Positions 20,279-31,666 of a stretch of DNA of 64,000 bases are shown in pieces (within the stretch, counting starts at the first letter, position 1; each line of letters begins with the position of its first letter). Below the pieces are notes generated by a model. That model was not told the DNA's origin. It saw only the letters and a program-made list of their open reading frames with translations, and made no database searches. A program made the translations under genes and the position numbers. This DNA is from a phage: the sequence record PZ445515.1; one strand, 5' to 3'.

Positions 20279-20350
20279 CGGGGTGTAGTCTAAGGGAGAG
20301 GCAGGAGTCTTCTAAATTCCTTTATGCAGGTTCGAATCCTGTCACCTCGG
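20279..20350 (+). tRNA. tRNA-Arg (anticodon TCT)
   Basis: Acceptor cggggtg/cacctcg, anticodon loop CTTCTAA, T-loop TTCGAAT, CCA encoded. Confidence 0.8.
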
Positions 20351-20387
20351 CCAATTTTATTAACTGTAACTAAAACAAAGGAAATAT

Positions 20388-21335
20388 ATGTTTGCTACTA
20401 AAAATATGAAAGAACTGACTTCTGAGCAGAAAGTAATTCGTACTATTAAACGTTGGGGTATTGGTGCTGTAGTTGGTTTAGCAGGTTTAATCCTAGCTTT
20501 TAATTCATATACTATTGTTTCTGATGGTACGGTTAAAACCCAAACATTCCTGGGTAAAGTAGACCCTAATCCAGTATTGCCGGGCTTCCATCTTGTAAAC
20601 CCGTTTGCATCTTTCGATACTTTTAGTACAAAAGATATTGCTGTAAAATTAGATAAACTTCAGGTTCCTAGCCAGGATAAGTTTAAATCCACTGTTGACC
20701 TGACTGTTATGTTGCAGTTTGATGGTTCTAAAGCACCGATTAACCGTATTAACGCAGGTACTCAGGATCAGGCACTAGACAAGTATGTAACTGAAAAATT
20801 ACTGTCTACTATTCGTGAGTTTGGTAAGTCTGTACCTAAAGCACAAGATTTATTTGATGCTAAAATTCAGGCTCAATTGCAAACTGCAATTCAACAGGAA
20901 GTTGAAGAGTATGCGCGCCCATATGGTTACACAGTTAAGCAGGTATTCCTTCAGGATATTACCTTGCCGCCAGTAATCATGGAACAGGTACAGAATACCA
21001 AAGTTCGTGAAGAGCAAGTTAATGCTGCGAAAGCTGAACTTGCTCGCGTTGAACAGGAAGCACAGCAAAAAGTTAAACAAGCAGAAGCAGATCGTGAAGC
21101 TCGTAACAACCAAGCTATTGCTAATGAACGTGACGCAGATGCTAAACTGTACGCAGCTAAGAAAGAAGCTGAAGCTAACGCCGCATTGCAACGTACCATT
21201 ACTCCTGAAATGATTCGTTGGAAACAACTGGAAGTTGAAATGATCCGTGCTCAGAAGTATCAAGGTGGTGTACCTCAGACTGTGGTAGGTACTGGCTACG
21301 ATGGTCAAATGATCATGGATATGCGTAACAAGTAA
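20388..21335 (+). CDS. SPFH/band-7 (prohibitin/HflC-like) membrane protein
   Basis: 315 aa; N-terminal TM helix, SPFH-like core, C-terminal A/E/Q-rich coiled coil. Confidence 0.55.
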   Translation: MFATKNMKELTSEQKVIRTIKRWGIGAVVGLAGLILAFNSYTIVSDGTVKTQTFLGKVDPNPVLPGFHLVNPFASFDTFSTKDIAVKLDKLQVPSQDKFKSTVDLTVMLQFDGSKAPINRINAGTQDQALDKYVTEKLLSTIREFGKSVPKAQDLFDAKIQAQLQTAIQQEVEEYARPYGYTVKQVFLQDITLPPVIMEQVQNTKVREEQVNAAKAELARVEQEAQQKVKQAEADREARNNQAIANERDADAKLYAAKKEAEANAALQRTITPEMIRWKQLEVEMIRAQKYQGGVPQTVVGTGYDGQMIMDMRNK

Positions 21336-21358
21336 TAGTTACACGTAATCTTCGAACC

Positions 21359-21394
21359 AAGCCCGCGTTTCCTACGAGAGCGCGGGCTTTTCTG
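21359..21394 (+). terminator. rho-independent terminator
   Basis: Hairpin gcccgcg...cgcgggc followed by TTTTCTG. Confidence 0.7.
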
Positions 21395-21411
21395 TATTTA
21401 AGGCAAAAGAA

Positions 21412-21447
21412 AAAGCCCCTTACCTTTCGGCAGGGGCTTTTGTTTTT
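21412..21447 (+). terminator. bidirectional rho-independent terminator
   Basis: Hairpin agcccct...aggggct flanked by A-run upstream and T-run downstream; between convergent genes. Confidence 0.65.
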
Positions 21448-21654
21448 GGTTTAGAACCATACTCTCGGTGTACAGCAACCACCCATACGGGAGGCCAATC
21501 TTGACTGAAAATCTACTCTAGGGGGCAGGATAAGAGTAGGCTTAAAGGCAAAGGGATTGAACGCCGGTATTTGCGTAAACATTGCTGGAGAGCAACAACG
21601 TGCTACAGGCACTGGGCAGCACGAAACAGATTTTCTGCAACACATATTTCCTCC

Positions 21655-22071
21655 TTAGGAGTTACTACCCCCATTTTGAGCTTTTGCAACTTGGCTTTGG
21701 CAGAAGCTATTAAACTTACCCATAAGTGATACAAGCTGTTTCCCATCCTCTGTCTTTGCGAAGTCTTCGAAAAGGGCTAGTACTGCCTGTCCTTCCGCAG
21801 AAACCTGCGGTTGTTGGGTTTGTTGCTGAACTTGCTGCTGAGGCACCTGTTGCTGCATTTGTTGAGGCATTTGCGACTGCCCGCTCATTTGCTGCATCAT
21901 TTGCATAGGACTCACACTTCCAGGGTTTTGCTGGAGTTGTTGCTGCATCTGTTGCGCTTCTGCTAAACGCTGTTGCAACTGTTGTAAGTAGGGGTTATCC
22001 AGACCCGGAATGGGCTGCTGGGAGCCCATACTTTGATTAAGTCCGTTATTTACAAAACCATATTTACTCAT
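21655..22071 (-). CDS. glutamine-rich low-complexity protein
   Basis: 138 aa; central Q-rich tract QQMQQQLQQ...QQVQQQTQQPQ; opposite strand to neighbours. Confidence 0.5.
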   Translation of the reverse strand: MSKYGFVNNGLNQSMGSQQPIPGLDNPYLQQLQQRLAEAQQMQQQLQQNPGSVSPMQMMQQMSGQSQMPQQMQQQVPQQQVQQQTQQPQVSAEGQAVLALFEDFAKTEDGKQLVSLMGKFNSFCQSQVAKAQNGGSNS

Positions 22072-22092
22072 AATGGGCTCCTCCCCTTAATA

Positions 22093-23082
22093 TTAAGCCG
22101 GCAGTTTAGCCTGCAGACCAGCCAGAGTCTGAGTGATAGCACCAAGACTTAAAGCGATTTGATTAATTACCTGACCGTTAGCACCGCTACCCGCAGCGAT
22201 TGCTTCACGTAGGCGACATGCGTCTAACTCATCCTGGATACGCGCAGTAGTTACACCAGCGATCGCAGTCTGAAGTTCACAGCAACATTCAGCGATCTGA
22301 CGTTCCAGAGAGTTCTGGTTAGCACACATCTGAGCCTGAACAGCGGCAAACTGGTTATTAGTTTGTAAAGTCTGCTGGAAAGCGATCTGTGCAGAATCAA
22401 ACTTATCTTGTGCACGAGCTATCTGGTTAGCTGCGAAAGATTGATCAATCTGGCGAGAAAGATCGAACTGACCCTGAATAACGTTGCGAGTTTCCTGGCA
22501 GATCTGATTAGACAGATTAGCACCTGTACCGTAGATCGTAGTTAGTACAGACTGAGTATCACGGCTCTGGTTTTGGGTTGTCTGGCTAAAACCATTGTTA
22601 ACTGCGCTTAAAACAGCTCCAGTACCCTGGTTAGCCTCTGTACGAGTAGTGTTGATAGCTGCTAGAATACTAGCGGTATCTTGGTTCTGAAGTACTGCAT
22701 CAACTGCGGTACCTTCACCAACTACACCACGTCCACCGAATCCACCGAAACCACCGAATCCGCCGGTTAATAGAGCACCGATTAGGATAGCTCCGAATAG
22801 TCCCATACCTTCACCACCGAAAGCACCTGCGTTTGCTGGGTAACCACCCAGTAGGCCAGGGAAGCCACTAGTGAATACGTTTACTGGTTCTTGCATTTTA
22901 TGTTTTCCATATTTATGACAATGTTCATCATCGTCATCTTCTTCTTCATCATCGTGTTCACGATGTTTTTCTTCGTAGGCTCTGACCTTCTCCCACTTTT
23001 TCTTATCTGATTCCTCGTGACGGTGCAGTTCTGCTGCAACGCTAGCGACGGTCTCAGGACTCTTAGCTACTTCTTCTGTCAT
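22093..23082 (-). CDS. low-complexity protein (acidic tract, Gly-rich repeat, Q/N/T/A-rich domain)
   Basis: Start at internal ATG 23082 with AGGAGG RBS; EEEDDDDEH, GGFGGFGGFGG, then long Q/N/A-rich region. Confidence 0.5.
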   Translation of the reverse strand: MTEEVAKSPETVASVAAELHRHEESDKKKWEKVRAYEEKHREHDDEEEDDDDEHCHKYGKHKMQEPVNVFTSGFPGLLGGYPANAGAFGGEGMGLFGAILIGALLTGGFGGFGGFGGRGVVGEGTAVDAVLQNQDTASILAAINTTRTEANQGTGAVLSAVNNGFSQTTQNQSRDTQSVLTTIYGTGANLSNQICQETRNVIQGQFDLSRQIDQSFAANQIARAQDKFDSAQIAFQQTLQTNNQFAAVQAQMCANQNSLERQIAECCCELQTAIAGVTTARIQDELDACRLREAIAAGSGANGQVINQIALSLGAITQTLAGLQAKLPA

Positions 23083-23289
23083 ATTTTGACACCTCCTAGT
23101 ATATAGAAAATGTGTGTCTCTTTGATCACTCATCCATAACATATACTTTACACTACCCCAGCGAAAATGTCAAGGGGTCTTTAAAAATTGCCCCCGGATT
23201 TTTAGTGGGGTCACAAATTTTGGTCCTCCCCACTTATCTGCTACCCTTAAGTGCCCTATGATTTTCCTCTAAAAAGTTAAAAAATTTGA

Positions 23290-23318
23290 TTGCTTGAATG
23301 CTAAATTCTCTGTATAAT
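23290..23318 (+). promoter_or_regulatory. T5-type early promoter
   Basis: TTGCTT -35, 17 bp, TATAAT -10. Confidence 0.6.
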
Positions 23319-23348
23319 ATATCTATAAATTTGAGAGAGGAACCAAAT

Positions 23349-23867
23349 ATGAATGTTGATGAGCTAACACAGCACCTCTTATCCAGAGGATTTGATACAG
23401 ATAAATATCATTGCTGGTTAAGTCCGGAAGGATGGCTAACAGTCCCGTTGTATGACTTCTCCGGGATGTTGCGAGGCTATCAGACGTATAATCCTTCTGC
23501 TCCAAAAGGTCATGGTAAGTGTCCCTTTGAAGCTAAATATTTTACTTATTCTACTACCCAGTGTGTATGGGGACTAGAAACTCTCAATGGAGATGAAAAA
23601 GTAGTATTGATCGCTGAATCTGTATTTAAGGCAGTTGCGCTACATAACGCTGGTTATCCAGCCCTGGCAATGTTAGGTTCTTCTCCAGGAAAAGCGTTAT
23701 TAAAGCAACTGAAATTATTACCTTTTAAATTGGTAGCTGTCGGAGACAACGATCCTGCGGGTGAAAAATTTGCTAGAAAATTAAACGGCTTTGTTTCTCC
23801 CGTAGATGTGGATGAGATGTCTACCGAAAACTTGAAAAATTTTCTTGCTATGAAGCTAAATTTCTAA
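23349..23867 (+). CDS. hypothetical protein with Toprim-like motif
   Basis: 172 aa from ATG 23349; VVLIAESVFKAV...VGDNDPAGEKFA resembles Toprim fold; tentative. Confidence 0.35.
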   Translation: MNVDELTQHLLSRGFDTDKYHCWLSPEGWLTVPLYDFSGMLRGYQTYNPSAPKGHGKCPFEAKYFTYSTTQCVWGLETLNGDEKVVLIAESVFKAVALHNAGYPALAMLGSSPGKALLKQLKLLPFKLVAVGDNDPAGEKFARKLNGFVSPVDVDEMSTENLKNFLAMKLNF

Positions 23868-23873
23868 TATAAT
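23845..23873 (+). promoter_or_regulatory. T5-type promoter overlapping CDS end, driving tRNA cluster
   Basis: TTGCTA -35, 17 bp, TATAAT -10. Confidence 0.5.
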
Positions 23874-23888
23874 ATATCTTATAAATTC

Positions 23889-23974
23889 GGAAGAATAGCA
23901 TAACGGTATTGCAGCAGATTGCTAATCTGTCGGTTTGAAATATAGCCTTGTGGGTTCGATTCCCACTTCTTCCG
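23889..23974 (+). tRNA. tRNA-Ser (anticodon GCT)
   Basis: Acceptor ggaagaa/ttcttcc, anticodon loop TTGCTAA, long variable arm, T-loop TTCGATT, CCA encoded. Confidence 0.8.
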
Positions 23975-23983
23975 CCAAATTCT

Positions 23984-24058
23984 GGTTCTCAAGCTCATAT
24001 GGTATGAGCACCCGGCTCATAACCGGAAGGTACGTAGGTTCGAATCCTCGGGGAGCCA
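23984..24058 (+). tRNA. tRNA-Met/Ile2 (anticodon CAT)
   Basis: Acceptor ggttctc/gggagcc, D-stem gctc/gagc, anticodon loop CTCATAA, CCA encoded; T-stem imperfect. Confidence 0.7.
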
Positions 24059-24081
24059 CCAACTTAATTAGGGGATTACAA

Positions 24082-24270
24082 GTGGAATTATACATAGTTT
24101 ATGTTGTATTTATTCAAGATAGAGAATACCCGGATGAATATAAAAAAGGATATAGGTTAGCCAGAGCTACCTCTGAGGCCCAAGCTATGGATAAAGTGGC
24201 AGATTATATGATTATGGTAGAAAACGTATACTATATCGACTCCCTTGAAGCCTCAAAAGTAATTGACTAA
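24082..24270 (+). CDS. hypothetical small protein
   Basis: GTG start after AGGGGA; longer ORF-track version would overlap two tRNAs. Confidence 0.35.
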   Translation: MELYIVYVVFIQDREYPDEYKKGYRLARATSEAQAMDKVADYMIMVENVYYIDSLEASKVID

Positions 24271-24279
24271 GGAGACTAT

Positions 24280-24465
24280 ATGTCCAAGTTTCAAGAACTC
24301 AAGCAAGAGCTAGAAGAATGTGCCTGCCCTGAGTGTAGGGGAATTGGTGAAAGTTCTGATGCAGAAGCAGGAGATACTTTTTGCAATATCTGGATTTGTT
24401 CAAATTGCAACGGTACAGGTATTAATCCTAACTGCGGTGTTTCCCTAGATATTGAACGAGGATAA
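24280..24465 (+). CDS. small Cys-rich (zinc-ribbon-like) protein
   Basis: 61 aa; CPEC...CSNC pairs. Confidence 0.5.
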   Translation: MSKFQELKQELEECACPECRGIGESSDAEAGDTFCNIWICSNCNGTGINPNCGVSLDIERG

Positions 24466-24566
24466 TACCTGTGAAACTAAAAGATTATTATATTGGTTGG
24501 TTTGTGGGACTAGTAGTAGGATTTTCACTAGGCTATAATATGTATCAACTAATAAACTGATTACAT

Positions 24567-24640
24567 GGGGGTGTAATCGAATTGGTATAGGTACTGGACT
24601 TAAAATTCAGGTTTTGTGGGTTCGAATCCCACCACCCCTA
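24567..24640 (+). tRNA. tRNA with anticodon TAA (Leu-type anticodon, short variable arm)
   Basis: Acceptor gggggtg/cacccct, anticodon stem ctgga/ttcag loop CTTAAAA, T-loop TTCGAAT, CCA encoded. Confidence 0.65.
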
Positions 24641-24658
24641 CCAACTTAAGGAAATAAG

Positions 24659-24826
24659 ATGTATAGACATCCACCTCCGCCAACACGTCGTTCTAGAGAA
24701 GTTATCCTCATGGAATTGACGAAAAACTTCAAGGCAACTCTTGAAGATAGAGATCTAGGCACAGATGAAGACATTGATTTTATTTGTAGACTATTAAACA
24801 TGAAACTGGAGAAACAACATGGCTAA
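24659..24826 (+). CDS. hypothetical small protein
   Basis: 55 aa ORF right after tRNA; stop overlaps next ATG. Confidence 0.4.
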   Translation: MYRHPPPPTRRSREVILMELTKNFKATLEDRDLGTDEDIDFICRLLNMKLEKQHG

Positions 24827-25025
24827 TCCCGAAATTACCGCACAACGTTTCATGCTTAAAGGCATGATTGCTGAGGCAGGTATGACTCAAGAGGTTGCAG
24901 ACTTTCATAAGCAATTTCTTGATATTATAACCCTAGCTAAAGAGACAGGAGAAAGAGAACACGGAGCAGCAATTATGGCTATATCTCTTATTAGCCTAGA
25001 CTTAGCTGAAGAATCTGGAGTTTAG
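24819..25025 (+). CDS. hypothetical protein
   Basis: 68 aa ORF. Confidence 0.5.
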   Translation: MANPEITAQRFMLKGMIAEAGMTQEVADFHKQFLDIITLAKETGEREHGAAIMAISLISLDLAEESGV

Positions 25026-25055
25026 CTCCTCCAAACAGAATTTTTAAAAATGTAC

Positions 25056-25085
25056 TTGCCTTTTGCTTTAAATTTCTGGTATAAT
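25056..25085 (+). promoter_or_regulatory. T5-type early promoter
   Basis: TTGCCT -35, 18 bp, TATAAT -10. Confidence 0.5.
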
Positions 25086-25115
25086 AGTTATATAAATTGA
25101 TGAAGGAGTTAACGA

Positions 25116-25391
25116 ATGCAAAATCGTGTTATAGCAACTGGTATTGAAAGTGCAATCTGTAAATCCTGGGAAGGCTGGGAAGGTGAGATTGAATGGCTTT
25201 ATTTCTACGATGTAGAACTTCTGCCGGAAGTTAAAGCTAAATGTATTGAAGCTGGCATGGCTCCAGATGCAAAAGCTGATATTGATATTTCAATGTCTGA
25301 ACTTAAAGGTCGTGTAATTACTGTTAGTGATGAGGGCGAAGAAGTTTTCGAACTTCCATTCTCCTTAACTGTCGCTCCTAAGTTCGACTAA
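25116..25391 (+). CDS. hypothetical acidic protein
   Basis: 91 aa ORF. Confidence 0.5.
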   Translation: MQNRVIATGIESAICKSWEGWEGEIEWLYFYDVELLPEVKAKCIEAGMAPDAKADIDISMSELKGRVITVSDEGEEVFELPFSLTVAPKFD

Positions 25392-25427
25392 CTAATACAG
25401 CACTGAGCAAGTTCTTTAAAATTTGAC

Positions 25428-25456
25428 TTGCTCAGTGCCATAAAACTTGATATAAT
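25428..25456 (+). promoter_or_regulatory. T5-type early promoter
   Basis: TTGACT/TTGCTC -35, 17 bp, TATAAT -10. Confidence 0.55.
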
Positions 25457-25519
25457 AGTTATCTAATTTGGAAACATATCTAAAAGTGTTTAAACTAGTA
25501 TTTGAATACTTTTAAATAT

Positions 25520-25607
25520 GTTGGATTAGTATCGTAGAGGTAGCGAAGCAGACTGTAAATCTGCCGACTCGGAAGGGTCTCGGGTGGTTCGACTCCATCA
25601 TCCAACA
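25520..25607 (+). tRNA. tRNA-Tyr (anticodon GTA)
   Basis: Acceptor gttggat/atccaac, anticodon stem gcaga/tctgc loop CTGTAAA, long variable arm, T-loop TTCGACT, CCA encoded. Confidence 0.8.
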
Positions 25608-25617
25608 CCAAATTTAA

Positions 25618-25691
25618 GTCCTGTTAGACAAACTGGTAAAGTCACTACCCTTTCAAGGTAGGATTTGCGGGTTCGATCCCCGCACAGGACG
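25618..25691 (+). tRNA. tRNA-Glu (anticodon TTC)
   Basis: Acceptor gtcctgt/acaggac, anticodon stem ctacc/ggtag loop CTTTCAA, T-loop TTCGATC, CCA encoded. Confidence 0.8.
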
Positions 25692-25699
25692 CCAATTCC

Positions 25700-25776
25700 T
25701 GCATTCCTAGAGTGTTACTGGACAGCATGTCGGTCTCCAAAACCGTACGGTCTAGGTTCGAGTCCTAGTAGGTTTG
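25700..25776 (+). tRNA. tRNA-like, probable tRNA-Trp (anticodon CCA); 5' boundary uncertain
   Basis: Anticodon arm cggtCTCCAAAaccg like E. coli tRNA-Trp, T-arm ctagg-TTCGAGT-cctag, CCA encoded; acceptor pairing not found. Confidence 0.4.
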
Positions 25777-25785
25777 CCAAAATTT

Positions 25786-25857
25786 GCACCTTTAGCTGAG
25801 ATGGATTAGCGCTTGCCTGAAGAGCTTGAGAGGTTCGTTCGATACGAACAGGGTGCA
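25786..25857 (+). tRNA. tRNA (anticodon probably GAA, Phe)
   Basis: Acceptor gcacctt/agggtgc, T-arm gttcg-TTCGATA-cgaac, CCA encoded; anticodon stem imperfect. Confidence 0.6.
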
Positions 25858-26142
25858 CCAAATTGAGGGAGCTGCTGATGCACCCTGAAAACTTCTTTAT
25901 TTACTGCGCGGATAAGTTGCTGAAACGTAGAATTAACAAAGTCTATCATTATCGTGCTAGTCAACAGCCTTATGTATACGCTTTTGACGGTGATCACATT
26001 CCATTAGAACAATTATCCTGTGATTACATGATATTGAAGAACTTTGACGAGACAAAGATCTCAAGCGTTCATAATCGACAGAATCCCTTAACGTGGAAAT
26101 ATAAGAAGAAAAAGAAAGGCATCAAATTTTTAAAAAATGTAG

Positions 26143-26171
26143 TTGCTTAGTTTCCAAAAGTTCTGTATAAT
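26143..26171 (+). promoter_or_regulatory. T5-type early promoter
   Basis: TTGCTT -35, 17 bp, TATAAT -10. Confidence 0.6.
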
Positions 26172-26219
26172 AATTACATAAATTGAACTGGAGAAGCAAC
26201 ATGACAGAACAAGATAAAT

Positions 26220-26292
26220 CGACCGTTGGCTGAATGGCTTAGGCGAAGGATTGCAAATCCTTTTTATGTGAGTTCAAATCTCATGCGGTCGT
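26220..26292 (+). tRNA. tRNA-Cys (anticodon GCA)
   Basis: Acceptor cgaccgt/gcggtcg, anticodon stem aagga/tcctt loop TTGCAAA, T-loop TTCAAAT, CCA encoded. Confidence 0.8.
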
Positions 26293-26297
26293 CCAAT

Positions 26298-26438
26298 TTG
26301 CTGAAAGAGTTGTTAAATCAATTCAGGCACGCGTAGGAACACTGTCTCCGTAATTGAAAGATGAGGCACGGTTTGGAGAGGTATGCCGCTACACGCTACG
26401 GTGCTAACTCCGTCTAGGTGAAAATCCTAGTCAGCAAT
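26298..26438 (+). ncRNA. tRNA-like / stable-RNA candidate (about 140 nt)
   Basis: 7-nt ends ttgctga/tcagcaa complementary, T-arm-like ctagg-TGAAAAT-cctag at 3' side; no CCA; too long for tRNA. Confidence 0.25.
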
Positions 26439-26447
26439 ATAAATTTA

Positions 26448-26527
26448 GGGTCGTTAGCCAAGCGGTTTGGCGGTGGACTGTTAATCCATGTCGAAAGACA
26501 ACGTAGGTTCGAATCCTACACGGCCCG
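26448..26527 (+). tRNA. tRNA with anticodon GTT (Asn-type) and unusually long variable arm
   Basis: Acceptor gggtcgt/acggccc, D-stem gcca/tggc, anticodon stem gtgga/tccat loop CTGTTAA, T-loop TTCGAAT, CCA encoded. Confidence 0.65.
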
Positions 26528-26632
26528 CCAAATTCTGTGTAGAGTTAAGTAAACCGGTAGCCAACCAGCTATCATTGCTGACATCGAATTCAGTCACAGA
26601 TACCATTTTCATTAATAACTGAGGAAACAAGC

Positions 26633-26818
26633 ATGTCCAAGAATGTAATTGCACAGCTAGAAGTTCATCGTGATAGCACTATCAACAATATTGAAGTTGA
26701 GAAGAAATACATCGAAGAACTTAAACATGATATACTAGTAAGTCTCAACCGTCTTAATGTACGAAAAAAGTTTCTTAAAGAACTTAATGCAGCTATTGAA
26801 AAACTCAAAGCTGAGTAA
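26633..26818 (+). CDS. hypothetical small coiled-coil protein
   Basis: 61 aa ORF. Confidence 0.5.
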   Translation: MSKNVIAQLEVHRDSTINNIEVEKKYIEELKHDILVSLNRLNVRKKFLKELNAAIEKLKAE

Positions 26819-26827
26819 ATGAATTAT

Positions 26828-26901
26828 GCGACCGGGGCTGGCTTGGTAATGGTACTCCCCTGTCACGGGAGGGAATGTGGGTTCAAATCCCATCGGTCGC
26901 G
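26828..26901 (+). tRNA. tRNA-Asp (anticodon GTC)
   Basis: Acceptor gcgaccg/cggtcgc, anticodon stem ctccc/gggag loop CTGTCAC, T-loop TTCAAAT, CCA encoded. Confidence 0.8.
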
Positions 26902-26930
26902 CCAAATTAAACTAGTACGAGAAATATGCT

Positions 26931-27278
26931 ATGATTAATGCTAAAGAAGAATTGTTACTTGCCTTAAAGAATATTAATTCTGAAGTTAAGTGTATTAAGA
27001 TAGAATTCGGTTATTATGGGGACAAAGAAGTTTGGGTGTTACCCGTAGGTTATACAGAAAAAGATATTGAAGATTTTCTAAATAATCTAGACTTTAAATA
27101 TGATTCTGGTTTCGGTGGGCAATTGCTTTATGGTAACGTGTGGTTTACTGATGGAACTTGGTTAGAACGTGGTGAATACGACGGTTCTGAATGGTGGGAA
27201 TATAAGGCTACACCAGCAATCCCAGAAGAATGCCGAACAATTAATGGTGAAGTAGATAATACTTTACGGTTAAACTAA
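26931..27278 (+). CDS. hypothetical protein
   Basis: 115 aa ORF. Confidence 0.55.
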   Translation: MINAKEELLLALKNINSEVKCIKIEFGYYGDKEVWVLPVGYTEKDIEDFLNNLDFKYDSGFGGQLLYGNVWFTDGTWLERGEYDGSEWWEYKATPAIPEECRTINGEVDNTLRLN

Positions 27279-27670
27279 TAAAATTTCAGTGCAGAACACG
27301 GAGCTAGCAATTCGGAAGTGCTGACTCATGATAAGCTGCCTATGTACTTGCGAAGCGGTCGTGTCCAAGACTCGGACTCTTGCACTGAAAACAATCAAAC
27401 ATTCTAGCGTGGTTGATGGGGAAACCAGCTTGGCGAGGGCAGAAGCTCGTTCGATTCGAGTGAAAGAATGGTTCTCGTAAGTCCGCACAAGTGATAACAG
27501 GTTCGAGTCCTGTCTAGAATGACACTATAAAGTTTACTTATTATGTAGGTTCCGATAGATCGGCGGGTCTATTCTGGCACTTAAGAGAGGTCTCGCAAAC
27601 TTCTTTGTCAGCCGTGGGGTTGGTAGCCTCCAGGTGGCCTACACAATAAGTAAATTTATTAAAAATTCAT

Positions 27671-27699
27671 TTGCTATTATGCTTAATTCTCTGTATAAT
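27671..27699 (+). promoter_or_regulatory. T5-type early promoter
   Basis: TTGCTA -35, 17 bp, TATAAT -10. Confidence 0.6.
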
Positions 27700-27731
27700 A
27701 TACCTTATAAAGTGTTGAGAAGGAAAGCAAA

Positions 27732-27929
27732 ATGAAAAAAGTTTTACTGCTGTCTGTATTCCTACTTACTGGTTGTTTTAAACTTGACTCAACCATTAAT
27801 AAAGAGTATGAATTTGCTAAAAATTTCTGTGGCGGAGAGAGTAATATAAAGAATTTCTACATATATAGTACAATTCCTAGTACCGTTTATTGTGTAGACG
27901 GACGAATTATTAATATTCCTCCACAATAA
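27732..27929 (+). CDS. small putative lipoprotein
   Basis: 65 aa; signal peptide with lipobox LLTGC. Confidence 0.5.
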   Translation: MKKVLLLSVFLLTGCFKLDSTINKEYEFAKNFCGGESNIKNFYIYSTIPSTVYCVDGRIINIPPQ

Positions 27930-27938
27930 AAGAATTAA

Positions 27939-28011
27939 CAGTGCGTAGCGCAGTTGGTAGCGTGGGAGCCTTGGATGCTTCGGGTCGCAGGTTCGAGTCC
28001 TGCCGCACTGA
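27939..28011 (+). tRNA. tRNA-Pro (anticodon TGG)
   Basis: Standard 73-nt cloverleaf: acceptor cagtgcg/cgcactg, D-stem gcgc/gcgt, anticodon loop CTTGGAT, T-loop TTCGAGT, CCA encoded. Confidence 0.85.
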
Positions 28012-28020
28012 CCAAACAAT

Positions 28021-28095
28021 TGCGGGTTAGATCTCTGGTAGAGATCGCTAGTCTCATAAGCTAGAAAGAGGTAGGTTCGATTCCTGCACCCGCTT
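28021..28095 (+). tRNA. tRNA-Met/Ile2 (anticodon CAT)
   Basis: D-stem gatc/gatc, anticodon stem ctagt/gctag loop CTCATAA, T-loop TTCGATT, CCA encoded. Confidence 0.75.
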
Positions 28096-28118
28096 CCATT
28101 TTAATAGAGGATTTCGAA

Positions 28119-28286
28119 ATGAAAGTATTTCGATTAGTAGTAAGTGACAAACGGTTAGGTAAGAATACATCAAAATCCTTACTCGCTCATTATGGTAAAA
28201 ATTGGGATGAAGTAATGGTAGAGTTTAGTACTAATCACCCTTACTTAAAAGTCCACTCTATTAAAGAAGTGTATAATGGTTACTAA
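28119..28286 (+). CDS. hypothetical small protein
   Basis: 55 aa ORF between two tRNAs. Confidence 0.4.
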   Translation: MKVFRLVVSDKRLGKNTSKSLLAHYGKNWDEVMVEFSTNHPYLKVHSIKEVYNGY

Positions 28287-28287
28287 T

Positions 28288-28363
28288 AGATCGCTAGCTC
28301 AATAGGTTTAGTAGCATCCGACTTTTAATCGGAAGGTTCTGGGTTCGAGTCCCAGGCGATCTA
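28288..28363 (+). tRNA. tRNA-Lys (anticodon TTT)
   Basis: Acceptor agatcgc/gcgatct, anticodon stem tccga/tcgga loop CTTTTAA, T-loop TTCGAGT, CCA encoded. Confidence 0.8.
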
Positions 28364-28384
28364 CCAATTTCAAGAAAAACGCAG

Positions 28385-28413
28385 TTGCTTAATGCTTAAT
28401 TTCTTGTTATAAT
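28385..28413 (+). promoter_or_regulatory. T5-type early promoter (drives non-coding block plus tRNAs)
   Basis: TTGCTT -35, 17 bp, TATAAT -10. Confidence 0.6.
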
Positions 28414-28430
28414 ATTTATATAAATTGATG

Positions 28431-28650
28431 AGGAGAAATCCTCATCATAGTTCACTAAGGTATTAGCTCGACCTAGGACTGGCTGCCAAAAAGCACGATC
28501 CCTACGATTCGGGAGAAGTTCTAGATTAGTCCACTAGATTCAGTGGCAACTGAATAGTGTATCGGGTTTGCGAGATGACGCGGTTCCTTCCGCTCGAAGC
28601 GAAGGTGCTGTAGTTACGCCGAGCTAATAGCCTTAGTAAACTAAATAATT
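28431..28650 (+). ncRNA. candidate structured non-coding RNA
   Basis: No ORF; hairpin gatgagga...tcctcatc at 5' end; 10-nt complementary pair tattagctcg/cgagctaata enclosing about 150 nt. Confidence 0.3.
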
Positions 28651-28651
28651 T

Positions 28652-28727
28652 GGGGAATGGGTCTGCATGGAGTGGACACCTCGCTTGCACCGAGGACATC
28701 AGAACGGTTCGATTCCGTTATTCTCCA
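28652..28727 (+). tRNA. tRNA-Ala (anticodon TGC)
   Basis: Acceptor ggggaat/attctcc, anticodon stem cctcg/cgagg loop CTTGCAC, T-loop TTCGATT, CCA encoded. Confidence 0.8.
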
Positions 28728-28735
28728 CCAAATAC

Positions 28736-28809
28736 GCGTGATTGATGGAATTGGCATACATACCGTCCTTAGAAGTCGGGTTTTGAGGGTTCGAATCCCT
28801 TGTCACGCA
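28736..28809 (+). tRNA. tRNA with anticodon TAG (Leu-type anticodon, short variable arm)
   Basis: Acceptor gcgtgat/gtcacgc, anticodon loop CTTAGAA, T-loop TTCGAAT, CCA encoded. Confidence 0.65.
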
Positions 28810-28924
28810 CCAAATTTGATGGTCAGAGTAAATTAAACCTACTATCTCGGTTGAGCTGTTTTAATGGGTTCGAATCCCAGCGAGGCGTAACTGCCTGGTG
28901 TGATAGAGGCATCATCTTGTTATT

Positions 28925-29012
28925 GGAAGAGCAAATCGAATTGGTGACGAAAACCGCTTGGAAAGTGGCTGACTGGTAAAACGGCTTGAGAGTTCAAATC
29001 TCTCCTCTTCCG
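28925..29012 (+). tRNA. tRNA-Ser (anticodon GGA)
   Basis: Acceptor ggaagag/ctcttcc, anticodon loop TTGGAAA, long variable arm, T-loop TTCAAAT, CCA encoded. Confidence 0.75.
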
Positions 29013-29027
29013 CCAAACAATTTATAT

Positions 29028-29119
29028 GGTAGGTCAATCCAATGGCTGGCGCTGGACTCCGACTTGAAATCGGTTGATCGTAGTGATACGGTGTAAGGGT
29101 TCGATCCCCTTACCTACCT
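29028..29119 (+). tRNA. tRNA-Ser (anticodon TGA)
   Basis: Acceptor ggtaggt/acctacc, anticodon loop CTTGAAA, long variable arm, T-loop TTCGATC, CCA encoded. Confidence 0.75.
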
Positions 29120-29488
29120 CCAAATCCTGAAGTATGCCGGAATCGGTAGACGGGGCTGCCTAAAAGGTTTATAGGGAACATCCACTCCCTGCAACATACC
29201 TCATAAAGCGGCTGAGATAAATGGTCTATCTCGTGAAGGTTCAAGTCCTTCTGCTTCTTGATACACCAATGGCTCAAAGTGTAACGGTGCTATTTGATGC
29301 GCTTAGTAAGACTTCCCCGACATGCGTTCGGGAGTAAGCTGCTAAGACTAGAGTAGAAGAGTTTCTGAGAGCCGCCACAATTGAAAATTCGTACTCGTCT
29401 TGAGCTGCGTGCAATAGGAGATAACTTGATTAGTATTCTAGAACATGCTAATTGAGGAAGGTTTCGCTAACCCTGCGAGTTTTCAATT

Positions 29489-29562
29489 GTGGCTATATCA
29501 TAATTGGTTAATGATCCTGATTGTGAATCAGGCCTATGTGGATTCGAATTCCACTAGCCACC
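29489..29562 (+). tRNA. tRNA-His (anticodon GTG)
   Basis: Acceptor gtggcta/tagccac, anticodon stem cctga/tcagg loop TTGTGAA, T-loop TTCGAAT, CCA encoded. Confidence 0.8.
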
Positions 29563-29590
29563 CCAAATTAACTTAAATAGGAAATAAAAT

Positions 29591-29785
29591 ATGGCTGATT
29601 TCTGCAAACAATGCTCCATTGATATGTGGGGTAAAGATACTGGTGATCTTTCTGGTTTGATTACAGAAGCTGAGGTCAAAGAAGGTTATGGTGCAGTTGT
29701 GATTTGCGAAGGATGCGGCGTTATTCGTGTTGATCATGAAGGCAAACGTTTGGAAGAATCTGAGCCAACAACAATTTTTCCGTAG
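29591..29785 (+). CDS. small Cys-rich (zinc-ribbon-like) protein
   Basis: 64 aa; CKQC...CEGC pairs. Confidence 0.5.
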   Translation: MADFCKQCSIDMWGKDTGDLSGLITEAEVKEGYGAVVICEGCGVIRVDHEGKRLEESEPTTIFP

Positions 29786-29797
29786 AATAAAAATTAT

Positions 29798-29870
29798 TGG
29801 GATGTAGATCAATTGGCAGATCGTCGGCCTCTGACTCCGAAGGTTCCACGTTCGATCCGTGGCATCCCAG
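29798..29870 (+). tRNA. tRNA-Gln (anticodon CTG)
   Basis: Acceptor tgggatg/catccca, anticodon loop CTCTGAC, T-loop TTCGATC, CCA encoded. Confidence 0.8.
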
Positions 29871-29879
29871 CCAAATAAT

Positions 29880-29952
29880 TGGAGAGTAGTGTAACGGTTA
29901 GCACAACGGCCTTTGACTCCGTTAATGGTAGGTTCGATTCCTCCTTCTCCAG
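29880..29952 (+). tRNA. tRNA-Gln (anticodon TTG)
   Basis: Acceptor tggagag/ttctcca, anticodon loop CTTTGAC, T-loop TTCGATT, CCA encoded. Confidence 0.8.
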
Positions 29953-29962
29953 CCAAACAATA

Positions 29963-30036
29963 AGCGGTTAAGCACACGGGTTGTGCCGCAGGCCTTCCAA
30001 GCCTCGCTGAGTAGGGTTCGATTCCCTCTAGCCGCT
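29963..30036 (+). tRNA. tRNA-Gly (anticodon TCC)
   Basis: Acceptor agcggtt/tagccgc, anticodon loop CTTCCAA, T-loop TTCGATT, CCA encoded. Confidence 0.8.
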
Positions 30037-30055
30037 CCAACTTTAAGGAAACATT

Positions 30056-30307
30056 ATGCACGTTTTTGAGTTTCGTAATAAAAGTACCGAAAAACGAGTT
30101 ATTGTTATTGGAGAAACATACCGAGCATACGAACAAACTGACGGCTCTGTTATCCTGAATGATGAGAAAGGAGGTTTTAGCTTTTATCCAGAAGAACCTT
30201 ATGAAGAGTTTCGAAAACAATTTAACCTAGACTGGAGAAAGCATTTAAACACTGTTGCTTCATCTGTAGTATTGCCAACTACCAGTACTGTACTCTCTAA
30301 TGGCTGA
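30056..30307 (+). CDS. hypothetical protein
   Basis: 83 aa ORF. Confidence 0.5.
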   Translation: MHVFEFRNKSTEKRVIVIGETYRAYEQTDGSVILNDEKGGFSFYPEEPYEEFRKQFNLDWRKHLNTVASSVVLPTTSTVLSNG

Positions 30308-30464
30308 TAACCTAAAAGTCAAGATCGATAAACAAAAGAAACGTGTAGAAGTAGAGATTGGTGAAGAACGTGTAGCCTTCACCTTTGAATTTCTACAACA
30401 AATGGCAATGGCGGTTATGACTGATAAGTCTCCTGTTATTGAAAAAGAAATCCCGTTGAAATAA
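30300..30464 (+). CDS. hypothetical small protein
   Basis: 54 aa ORF, ATG overlaps upstream stop. Confidence 0.4.
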   Translation: MADNLKVKIDKQKKRVEVEIGEERVAFTFEFLQQMAMAVMTDKSPVIEKEIPLK

Positions 30465-30472
30465 CGGGTTCT

Positions 30473-30556
30473 GCTGGGTTGGCAGAATGGTTGAATGCAC
30501 CTGATTTGTAATCAGGAGGAGTAATCCCGTTACAGGTTCGAATCCTGTGCCCAGCA
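30473..30556 (+). tRNA. tRNA with anticodon TGT (Thr-type) and 15-nt variable arm
   Basis: Acceptor gctgggt/gcccagc, anticodon stem cctga/tcagg loop TTTGTAA, T-loop TTCGAAT, CCA encoded. Confidence 0.7.
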
Positions 30557-30573
30557 CCAACTTAAGGACTATT

Positions 30574-30741
30574 ATGTTTAAATTATTAGTAGTTATCTGG
30601 TATAGTCAATCAAATAGAGCGAATACCTCCCACGTTATAGACTTTAATACTAAAAATGAAGCTGAAAAAGCATATTCTAATTTAATAGAACGTAATAAAG
30701 AATCTCGTAGTATAGTTTATGAAGTGACTAAACTTTATTAA
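30574..30741 (+). CDS. hypothetical small membrane protein
   Basis: 55 aa from ATG 30574; hydrophobic N-terminus. Confidence 0.45.
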   Translation: MFKLLVVIWYSQSNRANTSHVIDFNTKNEAEKAYSNLIERNKESRSIVYEVTKLY

Positions 30742-30748
30742 AAATTCA

Positions 30749-30778
30749 TTTGCTTTCTCTCTTATTTATTGTTATAAT
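30749..30778 (+). promoter_or_regulatory. T5-type early promoter
   Basis: TTGCTT -35, 18 bp, TATAAT -10. Confidence 0.6.
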
Positions 30779-30808
30779 ATTTATATAAATTAATGAGAGG
30801 GAAGCCAA

Positions 30809-31102
30809 ATGAAACGTTATCTTTCTGTTGTGTTCCAAACTGGTGGTCAACGCTATACCTATGAATTTCCTGGCTCTTGGAAGATCAAAGAAGGTGATCA
30901 AGTAGTAGTGTTAACACCGCGTGAGGGTTTTAAGGTAGTAACGGTTAAGCAAGTATTTCCAAAAGAGCATGAACCAGCTAAAGGCATTCGCTATAAGATG
31001 ATTCATGGTGTAGTTCGTCAAGTACCACGAGCGGAAGTCGAAATCAAAGTAGATAAAGATGGTAAACTTAAATATACCTCTTGCTTAGACGAGTTGCTAT
31101 AA
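30809..31102 (+). CDS. hypothetical protein
   Basis: 97 aa ORF. Confidence 0.55.
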   Translation: MKRYLSVVFQTGGQRYTYEFPGSWKIKEGDQVVVLTPREGFKVVTVKQVFPKEHEPAKGIRYKMIHGVVRQVPRAEVEIKVDKDGKLKYTSCLDELL

Positions 31103-31308
31103 TGAGGATTACTTTTACAGAAAAGATCATGAGTAATGGTGTTATGATCATTACCGCATGGGATGGTAATCAGTGGTGTAGTGTTTCAGGTATTAAGCCT
31201 GAAGAACAAACACTAGAAAATATCTCAAAGATTAAGCGAAGAATGGCAGAACGTGCACGACTTCCAGGTGCACCTAGAAATGGCAAACGTTCTGCTGCAA
31301 AATGTTAA
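31081..31308 (+). CDS. hypothetical protein (start 31081 or in-frame ATG 31102)
   Basis: 75 aa ORF overlapping upstream gene end. Confidence 0.45.
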   Translation: MLRRVAIMRITFTEKIMSNGVMIITAWDGNQWCSVSGIKPEEQTLENISKIKRRMAERARLPGAPRNGKRSAAKC

Positions 31309-31309
31309 T

Positions 31310-31383
31310 GCTTCGGTAGCTTAGCGATCTAAAGCACTCGGCTGATAACCGAGAGATCGGGGGTTTAAATCCCTCCCGGAGTA
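31310..31383 (+). tRNA. tRNA-Ile (anticodon GAT)
   Basis: Acceptor gcttcgg/ccggagt, anticodon stem ctcgg/ccgag loop CTGATAA, atypical T-loop TTTAAAT, CCA encoded. Confidence 0.75.
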
Positions 31384-31400
31384 CCAAATTAAGGTTATGT

Positions 31401-31559
31401 ATGGAAGATATTGATAAACTTGCAAAAATATTTGCTGAACTTTCTGATATAGAAGTCTCAGAGAACTCTAGAATAGATATGTTTATTGACCAATATAGAG
31501 AAGGACTTATCAGTAAGAAAGATCTTCTAGATCTAACCTATAAAGAATTAACTAGTTAG
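31401..31559 (+). CDS. hypothetical small protein
   Basis: 52 aa ORF; TAG stop overlaps 5' end of next tRNA. Confidence 0.4.
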   Translation: MEDIDKLAKIFAELSDIEVSENSRIDMFIDQYREGLISKKDLLDLTYKELTS

Positions 31560-31626
31560 TTGGCAGAGTGGTTATGCACCTCCTTCATACGGAGCGACTA
31601 CAGTGGTTCAAATCCACTACTAACTA
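31554..31626 (+). tRNA. tRNA-Met (anticodon CAT)
   Basis: Acceptor agttagt/actaact, anticodon loop TTCATAC, T-loop TTCAAAT, CCA encoded. Confidence 0.75.
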
Positions 31627-31666
31627 CCATTAAAAGAGCTAGAGATAGCTAACTTTAGGAGCAGCT

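What the first reader, a model, noticed from the sequence alone, without database searches (positions are those of the whole stretch)
24567..30556. tRNAs whose anticodon and architecture do not match canonical bacterial classes
By manual folding, the tRNAs at 24567-24640 and 28736-28809 have Leu-type anticodons (TAA, TAG) but a short 5-nt variable loop, whereas bacterial tRNA-Leu is class II. Conversely the GTT (26448-26527) and TGT (30473-30556) tRNAs carry 13-15 nt variable arms. No canonical class II tRNA-Leu and no tRNA-Val was identified. Either the anticodon assignments need software confirmation or these phage tRNAs have unusual identity elements.
Basis: seen in the sequence. Interest (0 to 1): 0.45.

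Follow-up and report, generated by a model that had tools for sequence, protein, structure and literature searches.

The report
Phage tRNAs with swapped variable arms
A T5-like phage carries leucine tRNAs that lack the long extra arm bacteria always give them, and threonine and asparagine tRNAs that have gained one; these are real, conserved and widespread phage tRNA types, and the two that gained an arm match tRNAs cut by a known bacterial defence nuclease.

Summary
ARAGORN and Rfam both call tRNA-Leu(UAA) and tRNA-Leu(UAG) with 5-nt variable loops. [quoted passage not shown] There is no class II tRNA-Leu and no tRNA-Val.

The window is 100% identical to Escherichia phage T5_ev212. Phage T5 itself has the opposite architectures at the same positions. 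All four types occur in 100-560 phage records, including unrelated families.

- **Long-arm Thr(UGU):** I found 71 distinct sequences in viral contigs and 69 in a few bacterial phyla. The arm shows compensatory changes, the 15:48 pair covaries, and G1-C72/C2-G71 are conserved.
- **Arm-less Leu:** these keep the tRNA-Leu body (A73, A15:U48, 3-bp D stem), which is what E. coli LeuRS reads.
- **Codon meaning:** ACA, AAY, UUA and CUA codons align with Thr, Asn and Leu codons in T5.

So the identity elements are ordinary and only the architecture is unusual. I infer normal charging by host synthetases.

A more speculative point concerns PARIS, whose nuclease AriB cleaves host Thr(UGU) and Asn(GUU). 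The long-arm alleles keep the host cleavage motif. Published rescue data for phage Bas33, which carries them, suggest they still work under PARIS. A steric-shield role is plausible but untested.

The parts
24567..24643 (+). tRNA-Leu(UAA), 77 nt with encoded CCA. The variable loop is 5 nt (GUUUU), so it is class I. It has a tRNA-Leu-type D arm (3-bp stem, G13.A22, loop AAUUGGUAU), A15:U48 and A73.
   Evidence: ARAGORN. Rfam 59.9 bits. Alignment with E. coli leuZ/leuW/leuV. Found at 95% identity or more in 327 phage records.
28736..28812 (+). tRNA-Leu(UAG), 77 nt with CCA. It has a 5-nt variable loop, the same Leu-type D arm and A73. It lies 5 nt after tRNA-Ala, as the 85-nt class II Leu(UAG) does in T5.
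   Evidence: ARAGORN. Rfam 47.5 bits. T5 annotation. Found at 95% identity or more in 162 phage records, against 52 for the T5 class II allele.
26448..26530 (+). tRNA-Asn(GUU), 83 nt with CCA and G73. The 13-nt variable region at 26490-26502 forms GUC-GAAA-GAC followed by AAC.
   Evidence: ARAGORN. Rfam 59.0 bits. 561 phage records have a match, including T4-like Klebsiella phages. 19 distinct long-arm Asn sequences with varied arm stems.
30473..30559 (+). tRNA-Thr(UGU), 87 nt with CCA. It has G1-C72, C2-G71 and A73. The 15-nt variable region at 30517-30531 forms A, GGA-GUAA-UCC, CGUU. The anticodon stem keeps U36AAUC|A41.
   Evidence: ARAGORN. Rfam 60.3 bits. 108 phage records. At least 120 viral contigs. 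Covariation.
19704..31629 (+). The tRNA gene cluster of the T5-like phage. It holds 21 tRNAs by default ARAGORN and 27 tRNA or tRNA-like calls with relaxed settings. All are on the + strand and are interspersed with small ORFs. The four unusual genes sit at positions syntenic with T5 genes of the opposite class.
23889..23977 (+). tRNA-Ser(GCU), 89 nt. This is one of the canonical class II tRNAs of the cluster. The others are Tyr at 25520-25610, Ser(GGA) at 28925-29015 and Ser(UGA) at 29028-29122. They serve as comparison.

Best explanation
These are four genuine tRNA genes of a T5-like phage. They belong to phage tRNA lineages in which the long variable arm has been lost (Leu) or gained (Thr UGU, Asn GUU), while the elements that host synthetases read are kept.

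I infer that each tRNA is charged according to its anticodon.

- **Leu:** E. coli LeuRS reads A73 and the D/T-loop corner (A15:U48, G18G19), not the arm or the anticodon.
- **Thr:** ThrRS reads G1-C72, C2-G71, G35 and U36.
- **Asn:** AsnRS reads GUU and G73.

The tRNAs therefore decode UUA/UUG, CUA/CUG, AAY and ACA normally during infection.

- **Shown:** the structures, conservation, covariation, identity nucleotides, allelic replacement relative to T5, and standard codon meaning.
- **Inferred:** the charging.
- **More speculative:** the changed architecture may be selected because it alters how host tRNA-directed defence nucleases see these tRNAs. The long-arm Thr and Asn keep the host-like AriB (PARIS) cleavage motif UAAUC|N. 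The T5 short-arm alleles escape by substitutions there. So the arm, which emerges three nucleotides from the scissile bond, may block the nuclease sterically.
For: **Structures.** Two independent programs agree.

**Source and synteny.** The window is 100% identical to Escherichia phage T5_ev212. At the same positions T5 has Thr(UGU) of 75 nt, Asn of 78 nt and Leu(UAG) of 85 nt.

**Distribution.**
- Long-arm Thr occurs in 108 phage records, including Aeromonas phage Ah1 (Straboviridae) and phage BUCT-ZZ01. Both also carry 78-nt Leu tRNAs.
- Long-arm Asn matches 561 records.
- Arm-less Leu(UAA) matches 353 records.

**Long-arm Thr(UGU) family.**
- There are 71 distinct sequences from at least 120 viral contigs.
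- They have 31 different arm stems, mostly capped by GNRA loops.
- The 15:48 pair is G:C in 57 and A:U in 14, and never mismatched.
- G1-C72/C2-G71 occurs in 67 of 71.
- In the formal count, 97.4% of cells pair, against 68% in shuffles. All three arm pairs change on both sides.
- The same tRNA is chromosomal in Eremiobacterota, Kiritimatiellae and others, often beside Tyr-Gly-Thr(GGU).

**Arm-less phage Leu.** A73 occurs in 31/31, A15:U48 in 28/31 and a non-Watson-Crick 13:22 in 30/31. This matches long-arm phage Leu and differs from other class I tRNAs.

**Identity rules.** These come from PMC9976931.

**Codon check against T5.** ACA aligns with Thr codons in 34/34 cases, AAY with Asn in 151/164, UUA with Leu in 48/50 and CUA with Leu in 35/36.

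**Defence link.**
- AriB cleaves E. coli Lys(UUU), Thr(UGU) and Asn(GUU) at 40|41.
- Phage Bas33 was rescued from PARIS by T5 tRNA-Lys alone (PMC12409363).
- Bas33 is HildyBeyeler. It carries the long-arm Thr (1 nt different from the window), a long-arm Asn and no Lys(UUU).
Against: - No aminoacylation or expression data exist for these alleles. Charging is inferred from sequence.
- The T5-like Thr(UGU) allele has A73, A15:U48, a G13.A22 3-bp D stem and a long arm. It therefore also resembles a LeuRS substrate, and some mischarging cannot be excluded.
- The Asn allele has G73, G2-C71, C11-G24 and an arm, which partly resembles tRNA-Ser.
- The anti-nuclease role rests on one published phenotype, read indirectly, and on geometry. 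Nobody has tested AriB on a long-arm tRNA.
- Long arms also occur on phage Cys, Met, Pro and Lys tRNAs and natively in bacteria. The arm is therefore not tied specifically to PARIS.
- UAAUC is enriched in long-arm Asn (18/19 against 15/38), but this is not corrected for relatedness. The same test is not significant for Thr.
- No known nuclease has been shown to target the arm of tRNA-Leu.
Confidence: 0.72

Rival explanations
1. Neutral drift. Synthetases do not read the arm, so phage tRNAs gain and lose it without consequence. The arm has no role of its own.
For: Both architectures coexist as alleles among T5-like phages. LeuRS tolerates loss of the arm. Long arms appear sporadically on several other phage isotypes.
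Against: The Thr arm is kept as a 3-bp hairpin with GNRA-type loops across 71 phage and 69 bacterial sequences, through many compensatory changes. This indicates selection for the helix itself.
Confidence: 0.2
2. Mischarging or recoding. The long-arm tRNAs are charged by LeuRS, SerRS or TyrRS, which read class II shape rather than anticodons. ACA or AAY codons would then be partly read as Leu, Ser or Tyr, as with nematode nev-tRNAs.
For: The Thr allele has A73, A15:U48 and a Leu-like D arm. The Asn allele shares the D loop AGCGG, the arm stem GUC/GAC and the T arm with E. coli tRNA-Tyr, and differs from its anticodon loop by one base. The nev-tRNA precedent is PMC3333845.
Against: - ACA aligns with Thr codons of T5 in 34/34 cases and AAY with Asn in 151/164.
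- Thr determinants G1-C72/C2-G71 are conserved in 67/71 family members. Most members have U73 and G15:C48, which are not Leu-like.
- The same tRNA sits in the thrU position of bacterial operons.
- The Asn tRNAs have G73, not the A73 needed by TyrRS.
- C2-G71 is an antideterminant for E. coli SerRS.
- Bas33 tolerates depletion of host Thr(UGU).
Confidence: 0.05
3. Non-translational decoys. The long-arm tRNAs keep the AriB motif so that they bind and titrate the nuclease, or another host factor, rather than serve mainly in decoding.
For: They retain UAAUC|N and U16. The authors of PMC12409363 suggest that some viral tRNAs may inhibit AriB by competition.
Against: They have full cloverleaves with encoded CCA and intact identity elements. 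The same architecture is native in bacterial genomes that have no phage context. Decoding and decoy roles are not exclusive.
Confidence: 0.08
4. Software or annotation artefact, or pseudogenes. The anticodon loops would be misplaced or the genes dead.
For: One GenBank annotation flags several neighbouring T5-like tRNAs as pseudogenes. Leu(UAG) has a U.U mismatch in its anticodon stem.
Against: ARAGORN and Infernal agree. Scores are 47-60 bits against a threshold of 29. Hundreds of near-identical copies exist in other phages. Every stem covaries.
Confidence: 0.01

Closest known systems
Canonical bacterial class II tRNAs (Leu, Ser, Tyr), for example E. coli leuZ, leuW, tyrU and serU
   Same: The arm-less Leu tRNAs share the D arm, A15:U48 and A73 of E. 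coli tRNA-Leu. The arms of the Asn and Thr tRNAs are short hairpins of tRNA-Tyr size (13-15 nt).
   Different: The isotype and class pairing is inverted. Leu has a 5-nt loop, while Asn and Thr carry arms. BLAST finds no similar E. coli gene.
Phage T5 tRNA alleles that counter PARIS (Lys UUU, Thr UGU, Asn GUU) and Retron-Eco7/Septu (Tyr)
   Same: The gene positions are the same in the same phage family. The isoacceptors are the same ones targeted by AriB. The variable region is already known as a battleground, because T5 tRNA-Tyr resists cleavage through a distinct variable loop (PMC12409363, PMC13096335).
   Different: T5 Thr and Asn are short-arm tRNAs with substitutions at positions 39-41. 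The window's alleles keep the host motif UAAUC|N and carry an extra arm instead. Their sensitivity to AriB has not been measured.
Animal mitochondrial tRNA-Leu (class I), for example human mt-tRNA-Leu(UUR)
   Same: It is a leucine tRNA without a long arm, recognised through A73 and A14.
   Different: The phage tRNAs have fully canonical bacterial D and T loops and encoded CCA. They would be charged by a bacterial LeuRS. The review states that Leu and Ser carry long arms everywhere except animal mitochondria.
Nematode nev-tRNAs (class II tRNAs with Gly or Ile anticodons, PMC3333845)
   Same: They carry a long variable arm on a tRNA whose anticodon is neither Leu, Ser nor Tyr.
   Different: nev-tRNAs are leucylated against their anticodon. 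Here the Thr and Asn determinants and standard codon meaning are conserved.
Chromosomal long-arm tRNA-Thr(UGU) of Eremiobacterota, Kiritimatiellae and some Acetobacteraceae (found here)
   Same: They share the D loop GGUUGA, G1-C72/C2-G71, a 13-16-nt arm with a GNRA loop and the same anticodon loop.
   Different: They are single-copy host genes, often beside Tyr-Gly-Thr(GGU). Most have U73 and all have G15:C48. The T5-like allele has A73 and A15:U48.

Membership tests
tRNA (Rfam RF00005) | Cloverleaf that scores above the gathering threshold of 29 bits | tested here: met
   The four genes score 59.9, 47.5, 59.0 and 60.3 bits. ARAGORN agrees.
E. coli-type tRNA-Leu (LeuRS substrate) | Discriminator A73 | tested here: met
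   Both arm-less genes have A73. So do 31/31 arm-less phage Leu tRNAs.
E. coli-type tRNA-Leu (LeuRS substrate) | Corner elements: A15:U48, G18G19, a tRNA-Leu-type D loop and a 3-bp D stem | tested here: met
   The D region GAAUUGG(U/C)AUA compares with E. coli GAAUUGGUAGA, and U48 is present. A15:U48 occurs in 28/31 and a non-Watson-Crick 13:22 in 30/31. The numbering of A20a is ambiguous.
E. coli-type tRNA-Leu (LeuRS substrate) | Long variable arm (a class II hallmark, reported as dispensable for E. coli LeuRS) | tested here: not met
   The variable loop is 5 nt, GUUUU. Dispensability is taken from PMC9976931.
E. coli-type tRNA-Leu (LeuRS substrate) | Leucylation by LeuRS | not testable with these tools
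   This needs an aminoacylation assay.
Bacterial tRNA-Thr (ThrRS substrate) | G1-C72, C2-G71, G35 and U36 | tested here: met
   All are present in the window gene. G1-C72/C2-G71 occurs in 67/71 family members. The rule is from PMC9976931.
Bacterial tRNA-Thr (ThrRS substrate) | Class I architecture (4-5-nt variable loop) | tested here: not met
   The variable region is 15 nt with a 3-bp stem.
Bacterial tRNA-Asn (AsnRS substrate) | Anticodon GUU plus G73 | tested here: met
   Both are present. G73 occurs in 17/19 long-arm Asn tRNAs. The rule is from PMC9976931.
Bacterial tRNA-Asn (AsnRS substrate) | Class I architecture | tested here: not met
   The variable region is 13 nt, GUC-GAAA-GAC.
AriB (PARIS)-resistant phage tRNA | Substitution at or near the 40|41 cleavage site, or U16C | tested here: not met
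   The window Thr keeps UAAUC|A and U16. The window Asn keeps UAAUC|C, as the E. coli genes do (motif).
AriB (PARIS)-resistant phage tRNA | Not cleaved by AriB, and supports infection under PARIS | not testable with these tools
   There is only indirect evidence. Bas33, which carries these alleles, was rescued by tRNA-Lys alone.
Mischarged class II tRNAs (nev-tRNA-like) | Codons read by the tRNA carry a non-standard meaning | tested here: not met
   ACA aligns with Thr in 34/34 cases and AAY with Asn in 151/164 against T5 orthologues.

The most novel reading that the evidence does not exclude
The variable arm is a defence-evasion device. An arm added to Thr(UGU) and Asn(GUU) would sterically protect a host-like anticodon stem from AriB-type nucleases that cut at 40|41. 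In other phages the same may apply to Lys(UUU). Removing the arm from tRNA-Leu would escape nucleases that recognise or cut variable arms, as PtuAB/Septu do on tRNA-Tyr. Phages would then evade tRNA-targeting immunity by changing tRNA class, not only by point substitutions.
Probability: 0.3. Interest if true: 0.75.

Novelty: new variant of a known kind. Interest (0 to 1): 0.55.

Why it matters
[quoted passage not shown] The common rule adds only bacterial tRNA-Tyr and tRNA-Sec to that class.

Here that rule is broken in a conserved way. It is broken in hundreds of coliphage genomes, in unrelated phage families and, for Thr(UGU), in whole bacterial phyla. This gives natural test cases for how LeuRS, ThrRS and AsnRS handle the arm.

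It also matters for defence biology. The two tRNAs that gained an arm match two of the three main targets of the PARIS nuclease, and they keep its cleavage motif. That makes a new evasion mechanism directly testable with existing reagents.

It is also a practical warning for annotation. Isotype models may score these genes poorly or mark them as pseudogenes.

Tried and rejected
- **Host origin.** blastn of the Asn and Thr genes against 5,426 E. coli genomes gave no meaningful match. A recent host origin is therefore not supported.
- **Thr remoulded from tRNA-Leu.** I first read the Thr gene this way because of A73, A15:U48 and its D arm. The wider family mostly has U73 and G15:C48, so this is unlikely to be the origin of the family. 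It remains a mischarging caveat for the T5-like allele.
- **Asn remoulded from tRNA-Tyr.** This idea came from the alignment. It could not be tested fairly, because my search pattern fixed the D loop AGCGG.
- **Literature.** Searches found no description of arm-less phage tRNA-Leu or of long-arm tRNA-Thr or tRNA-Asn. The library omits most subscription journals, including the 1980s T5 tRNA sequencing papers.
- **Schlafen-type nucleases.** I checked whether these give a reason for losing the Leu arm. The bacterial study gives no such specificity.
- **Bas34.** I asked whether Bas34 contradicts the shield idea. Its 'tRNA-Asn' is a broken chimera, so it is uninformative.

Full report
**What is there.** The window carries a tRNA gene cluster on the + strand from about 19.7 to 31.6 kb. 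Default ARAGORN finds 21 tRNAs. Rfam finds 22 matches to the tRNA model. Relaxed ARAGORN finds 27 tRNA or tRNA-like genes.

| tRNA | Coordinates | Length (with CCA) | Variable region |
|---|---|---|---|
| Leu(UAA) | 24567-24643 | 77 nt | GUUUU |
| Leu(UAG) | 28736-28812 | 77 nt | GUUUU |
| Asn(GUU) | 26448-26530 | 83 nt | 13 nt, GUC-GAAA-GAC plus AAC |
| Thr(UGU) | 30473-30559 | 87 nt | 15 nt, A, GGA-GUAA-UCC, CGUU |

All four genes encode CCA. The only other long-arm tRNAs are Tyr and three Ser. There is no tRNA-Val and no long-arm tRNA-Leu.

**Where it comes from.** The region is 100% identical to Escherichia phage T5_ev212. It is 93-100% covered in many Tequintavirus genomes of Escherichia and Salmonella. 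Those records annotate the genes as tRNA-Leu, tRNA-Asn and tRNA-Thr.

The reference T5 genome has tRNAs for the same anticodons at the same positions, but with the opposite architecture. Thr(UGU) is 75 nt, Asn is 78 nt and Leu(UAG) is 85 nt with a long arm. T5 also has a tRNA-Val that the window lacks, and no Leu(UAA).

The T5 and window versions are not related by a simple insertion or deletion. They are divergent sequences, that is, replaced alleles.

In the phage collection, records matching at 90-95% identity or more are:
- arm-less Leu(UAG): 162, against 52 for the T5 long-arm type;
- long-arm Thr: about 100, against about 310 for the T5 short-arm type.

**These are phage-wide tRNA types.**
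- The long-arm Thr(UGU) also occurs in Aeromonas phage Ah1 (Straboviridae) and in phage BUCT-ZZ01. Each of these also has 78-nt Leu tRNAs.
- The long-arm Asn matches 561 phage records, including T4-like Klebsiella, Serratia and Proteus phages.
- The arm-less Leu(UAA) matches 353 records, including Pseudomonas, Vibrio and Aeromonas phages.

Running ARAGORN on those loci gave 71 distinct long-arm Thr(UGU) sequences.
- Their arms use 31 different stems, mostly 3 bp and capped by GAAA, GUAA or GCAA.
- The tertiary 15:48 pair is G:C in 57 and A:U in 14, and never mismatched.
- G1-C72 and C2-G71 are present in 67 of 71.

I ran a formal count on 24 sequences with a 15-nt arm, including the window's.
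- 97.4% of cells pair, against 68% after shuffling.
- All three arm pairs have changes on both sides.
- The 15:48 pair splits 12 A:U and 12 G:C.

The arm is therefore a selected helix, not a prediction artefact.

**Bacterial relatives.** The same pattern in one genome per species of GTDB gave only 119 loci, none from Enterobacteria. They are mostly Eremiobacterota, Kiritimatiellae and Acetobacteraceae. There the long-arm Thr(UGU) is a single chromosomal gene, often next to Tyr, Gly and Thr(GGU) genes, as thrU is in E. coli. A tRNA-Thr with a long arm therefore appears to be the normal cellular tRNA in a few phyla. This argues that ThrRS can use this architecture.

**Identity elements.** According to a recent review, E. 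coli LeuRS depends on A73, the A15:U48 pair, G18G19 and A20a. It does not depend on the anticodon or the long arm (PMC9976931).
- Both arm-less genes have A73, U48 and a D region GAAUUGG(U/C)AUA, against GAAUUGGUAGA in E. coli tRNA-Leu. They also have the 3-bp D stem and G13.A22.
- Across 31 distinct arm-less phage Leu tRNAs, A73 occurs in 31, A15:U48 in 28 and a non-Watson-Crick 13:22 in 30.
- This is the same as in 70 long-arm phage Leu tRNAs. It differs from 603 other class I tRNAs, where A73 is 66% and A15:U48 is 39%.

They are tRNA-Leu bodies that have lost the arm.

Threonine identity lies in acceptor-stem pairs and the anticodon. Asparagine identity lies in the anticodon and G73. The window genes have these elements. 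Long-arm Asn tRNAs have G73 in 17 of 19 cases, with varied arm stems.

**Codon meaning.** I compared 25 genes shared with T5, covering 3,111 aligned codons.
- Window ACA codons align with T5 Thr codons in 34 of 34 cases.
- AAC/AAU align with Asn in 151 of 164.
- UUA aligns with Leu in 48 of 50.
- CUA aligns with Leu in 35 of 36.

There is no sign of recoding. Low-level mischarging cannot be excluded this way. The T5-like Thr allele does look partly Leu-like, with A73, A15:U48, G13.A22 and an arm.

[quoted passage not shown] Its second subunit is modelled on the D loop around U16. The T5 versions of these three tRNAs carry substitutions there, and together they neutralise PARIS (PMC12409363).

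The window's long-arm Thr keeps UAAUC|A and U16. Its long-arm Asn keeps UAAUC|C, as in E. coli. T5 has G39 in both.

In that paper, phage Bas33 was rescued from PARIS by T5 tRNA-Lys alone, whereas T7 needed Lys plus Thr. Bas33 is HildyBeyeler. Its genome has the long-arm Thr (one base different from the window), a long-arm Asn, both arm-less Leu tRNAs and no Lys(UUU).

The simplest reading is that the long-arm Thr and Asn work in decoding and survive AriB. This is indirect evidence.

Other work shows that Retron-Eco7 and Septu cut the variable loop of host tRNA-Tyr, and that T5 tRNA-Tyr resists through a different loop (PMC13096335). The variable region is therefore already a known point of conflict.

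**Mechanism.**
- I consider it likely (about 0.7-0.8) that all four tRNAs are charged by host synthetases according to their anticodons and serve normal decoding.
- I consider it possible (about 0.3) that the arm changes are adaptive disguises against tRNA nucleases. The arm emerges three nucleotides from the AriB cut site and lies between the two contact regions.
- In support, long-arm Asn tRNAs keep UAAUC in 18 of 19 cases against 15 of 38 for short-arm ones (Fisher p = 5e-5). This is not corrected for relatedness.
- The same test is not significant for Thr.
- Long arms also occur on some phage Cys, Met, Pro and Lys tRNAs.

**Novelty.** The genes are present and named in hundreds of public records, so the sequences are not new. 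I found no paper that describes arm-less phage tRNA-Leu or long-arm tRNA-Thr or tRNA-Asn. The cited review states that Leu and Ser have long arms everywhere except animal mitochondria. My literature access is incomplete. I rate this a new variant of a known kind, of moderate to good interest.

Noticed in passing
window 29129-29258: This is a homologue (91% identity) of the T5 'RNA1' tRNA-like stable RNA. It folds as a class II-like cloverleaf with a tRNA-Leu-type D arm (GCCGGAAUCGGUAGACGG) and a 6-bp long variable arm. An insertion of about 45 nt sits in the anticodon arm. Several T5-versus-window differences in the stems look compensatory by eye. It is the only Leu-like long-arm structure in the cluster.
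   Followed up: partly
L279 about 10598-10681 (Escherichia phage SelmaRatti = Bas34): The annotated 77-nt 'tRNA-Asn' is the 5' part of a long-arm Asn joined to a 3' end resembling that of the window's CAU tRNA at 28021-28098. The acceptor stem cannot pair and ARAGORN does not call it. This may explain why Bas34 needed T5 tRNA-Asn for rescue from PARIS in PMC12409363.
   Followed up: partly
L131-L249 (bacterial genome loci): A long-arm tRNA-Thr(UGU) is a single chromosomal gene in Eremiobacterota/Vulcanimicrobiota, Kiritimatiellae, some Acetobacteraceae and others. It often lies beside Tyr-Gly-Thr(GGU). This looks like a native class II tRNA-Thr in whole lineages.
   Followed up: partly
window 28288-28366: tRNA-Lys(UUU) is 79 nt with an enlarged D loop and the sequence UAAUC|G41. 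It differs from the PARIS-resistant T5 allele, which has U39A and A41C. Its sensitivity to AriB is an open question.
   Followed up: no
window 19704-19777 and 27402-27469: There are two weak tRNA-like elements. The first scores 35.5 bits in Rfam, is called 'Ser(act)' by relaxed ARAGORN and is 'tRNA-OTHER' in GenBank. The second is a 68-nt call seen only with relaxed ARAGORN.
   Followed up: no
window 28813-28924: The spacer between Leu(UAG) and Ser(GGA) contains a T-arm-like GGGTTCGAATCCC. At the corresponding place T5 has the HNH endonuclease gene hegC. This hints at cassette exchange around homing endonucleases.
   Followed up: no
L011-L130 and L250-L276 (IMG/VR loci): Long variable arms with GNRA-capped stems also occur on some phage tRNA-Cys(GCA), Lys(UUU), Met(CAU) and Pro(UGG). 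About 30% of Leu tRNAs in these loci are arm-less. Disagreement between class and isotype therefore looks common in phage tRNA clusters.
   Followed up: partly
L009 3601-3676 and 4723-5141 (phage BUCT-ZZ01): ARAGORN calls a tRNA with a CUA anticodon (a possible amber suppressor) and a tmRNA-like gene near the long-arm Thr.
   Followed up: no
window 28652-28730: tRNA-Ala(UGC) has a 7-nt variable region and an odd D arm. It scores only 36.3 bits in Rfam and is flagged as a pseudogene in one GenBank record.
   Followed up: no
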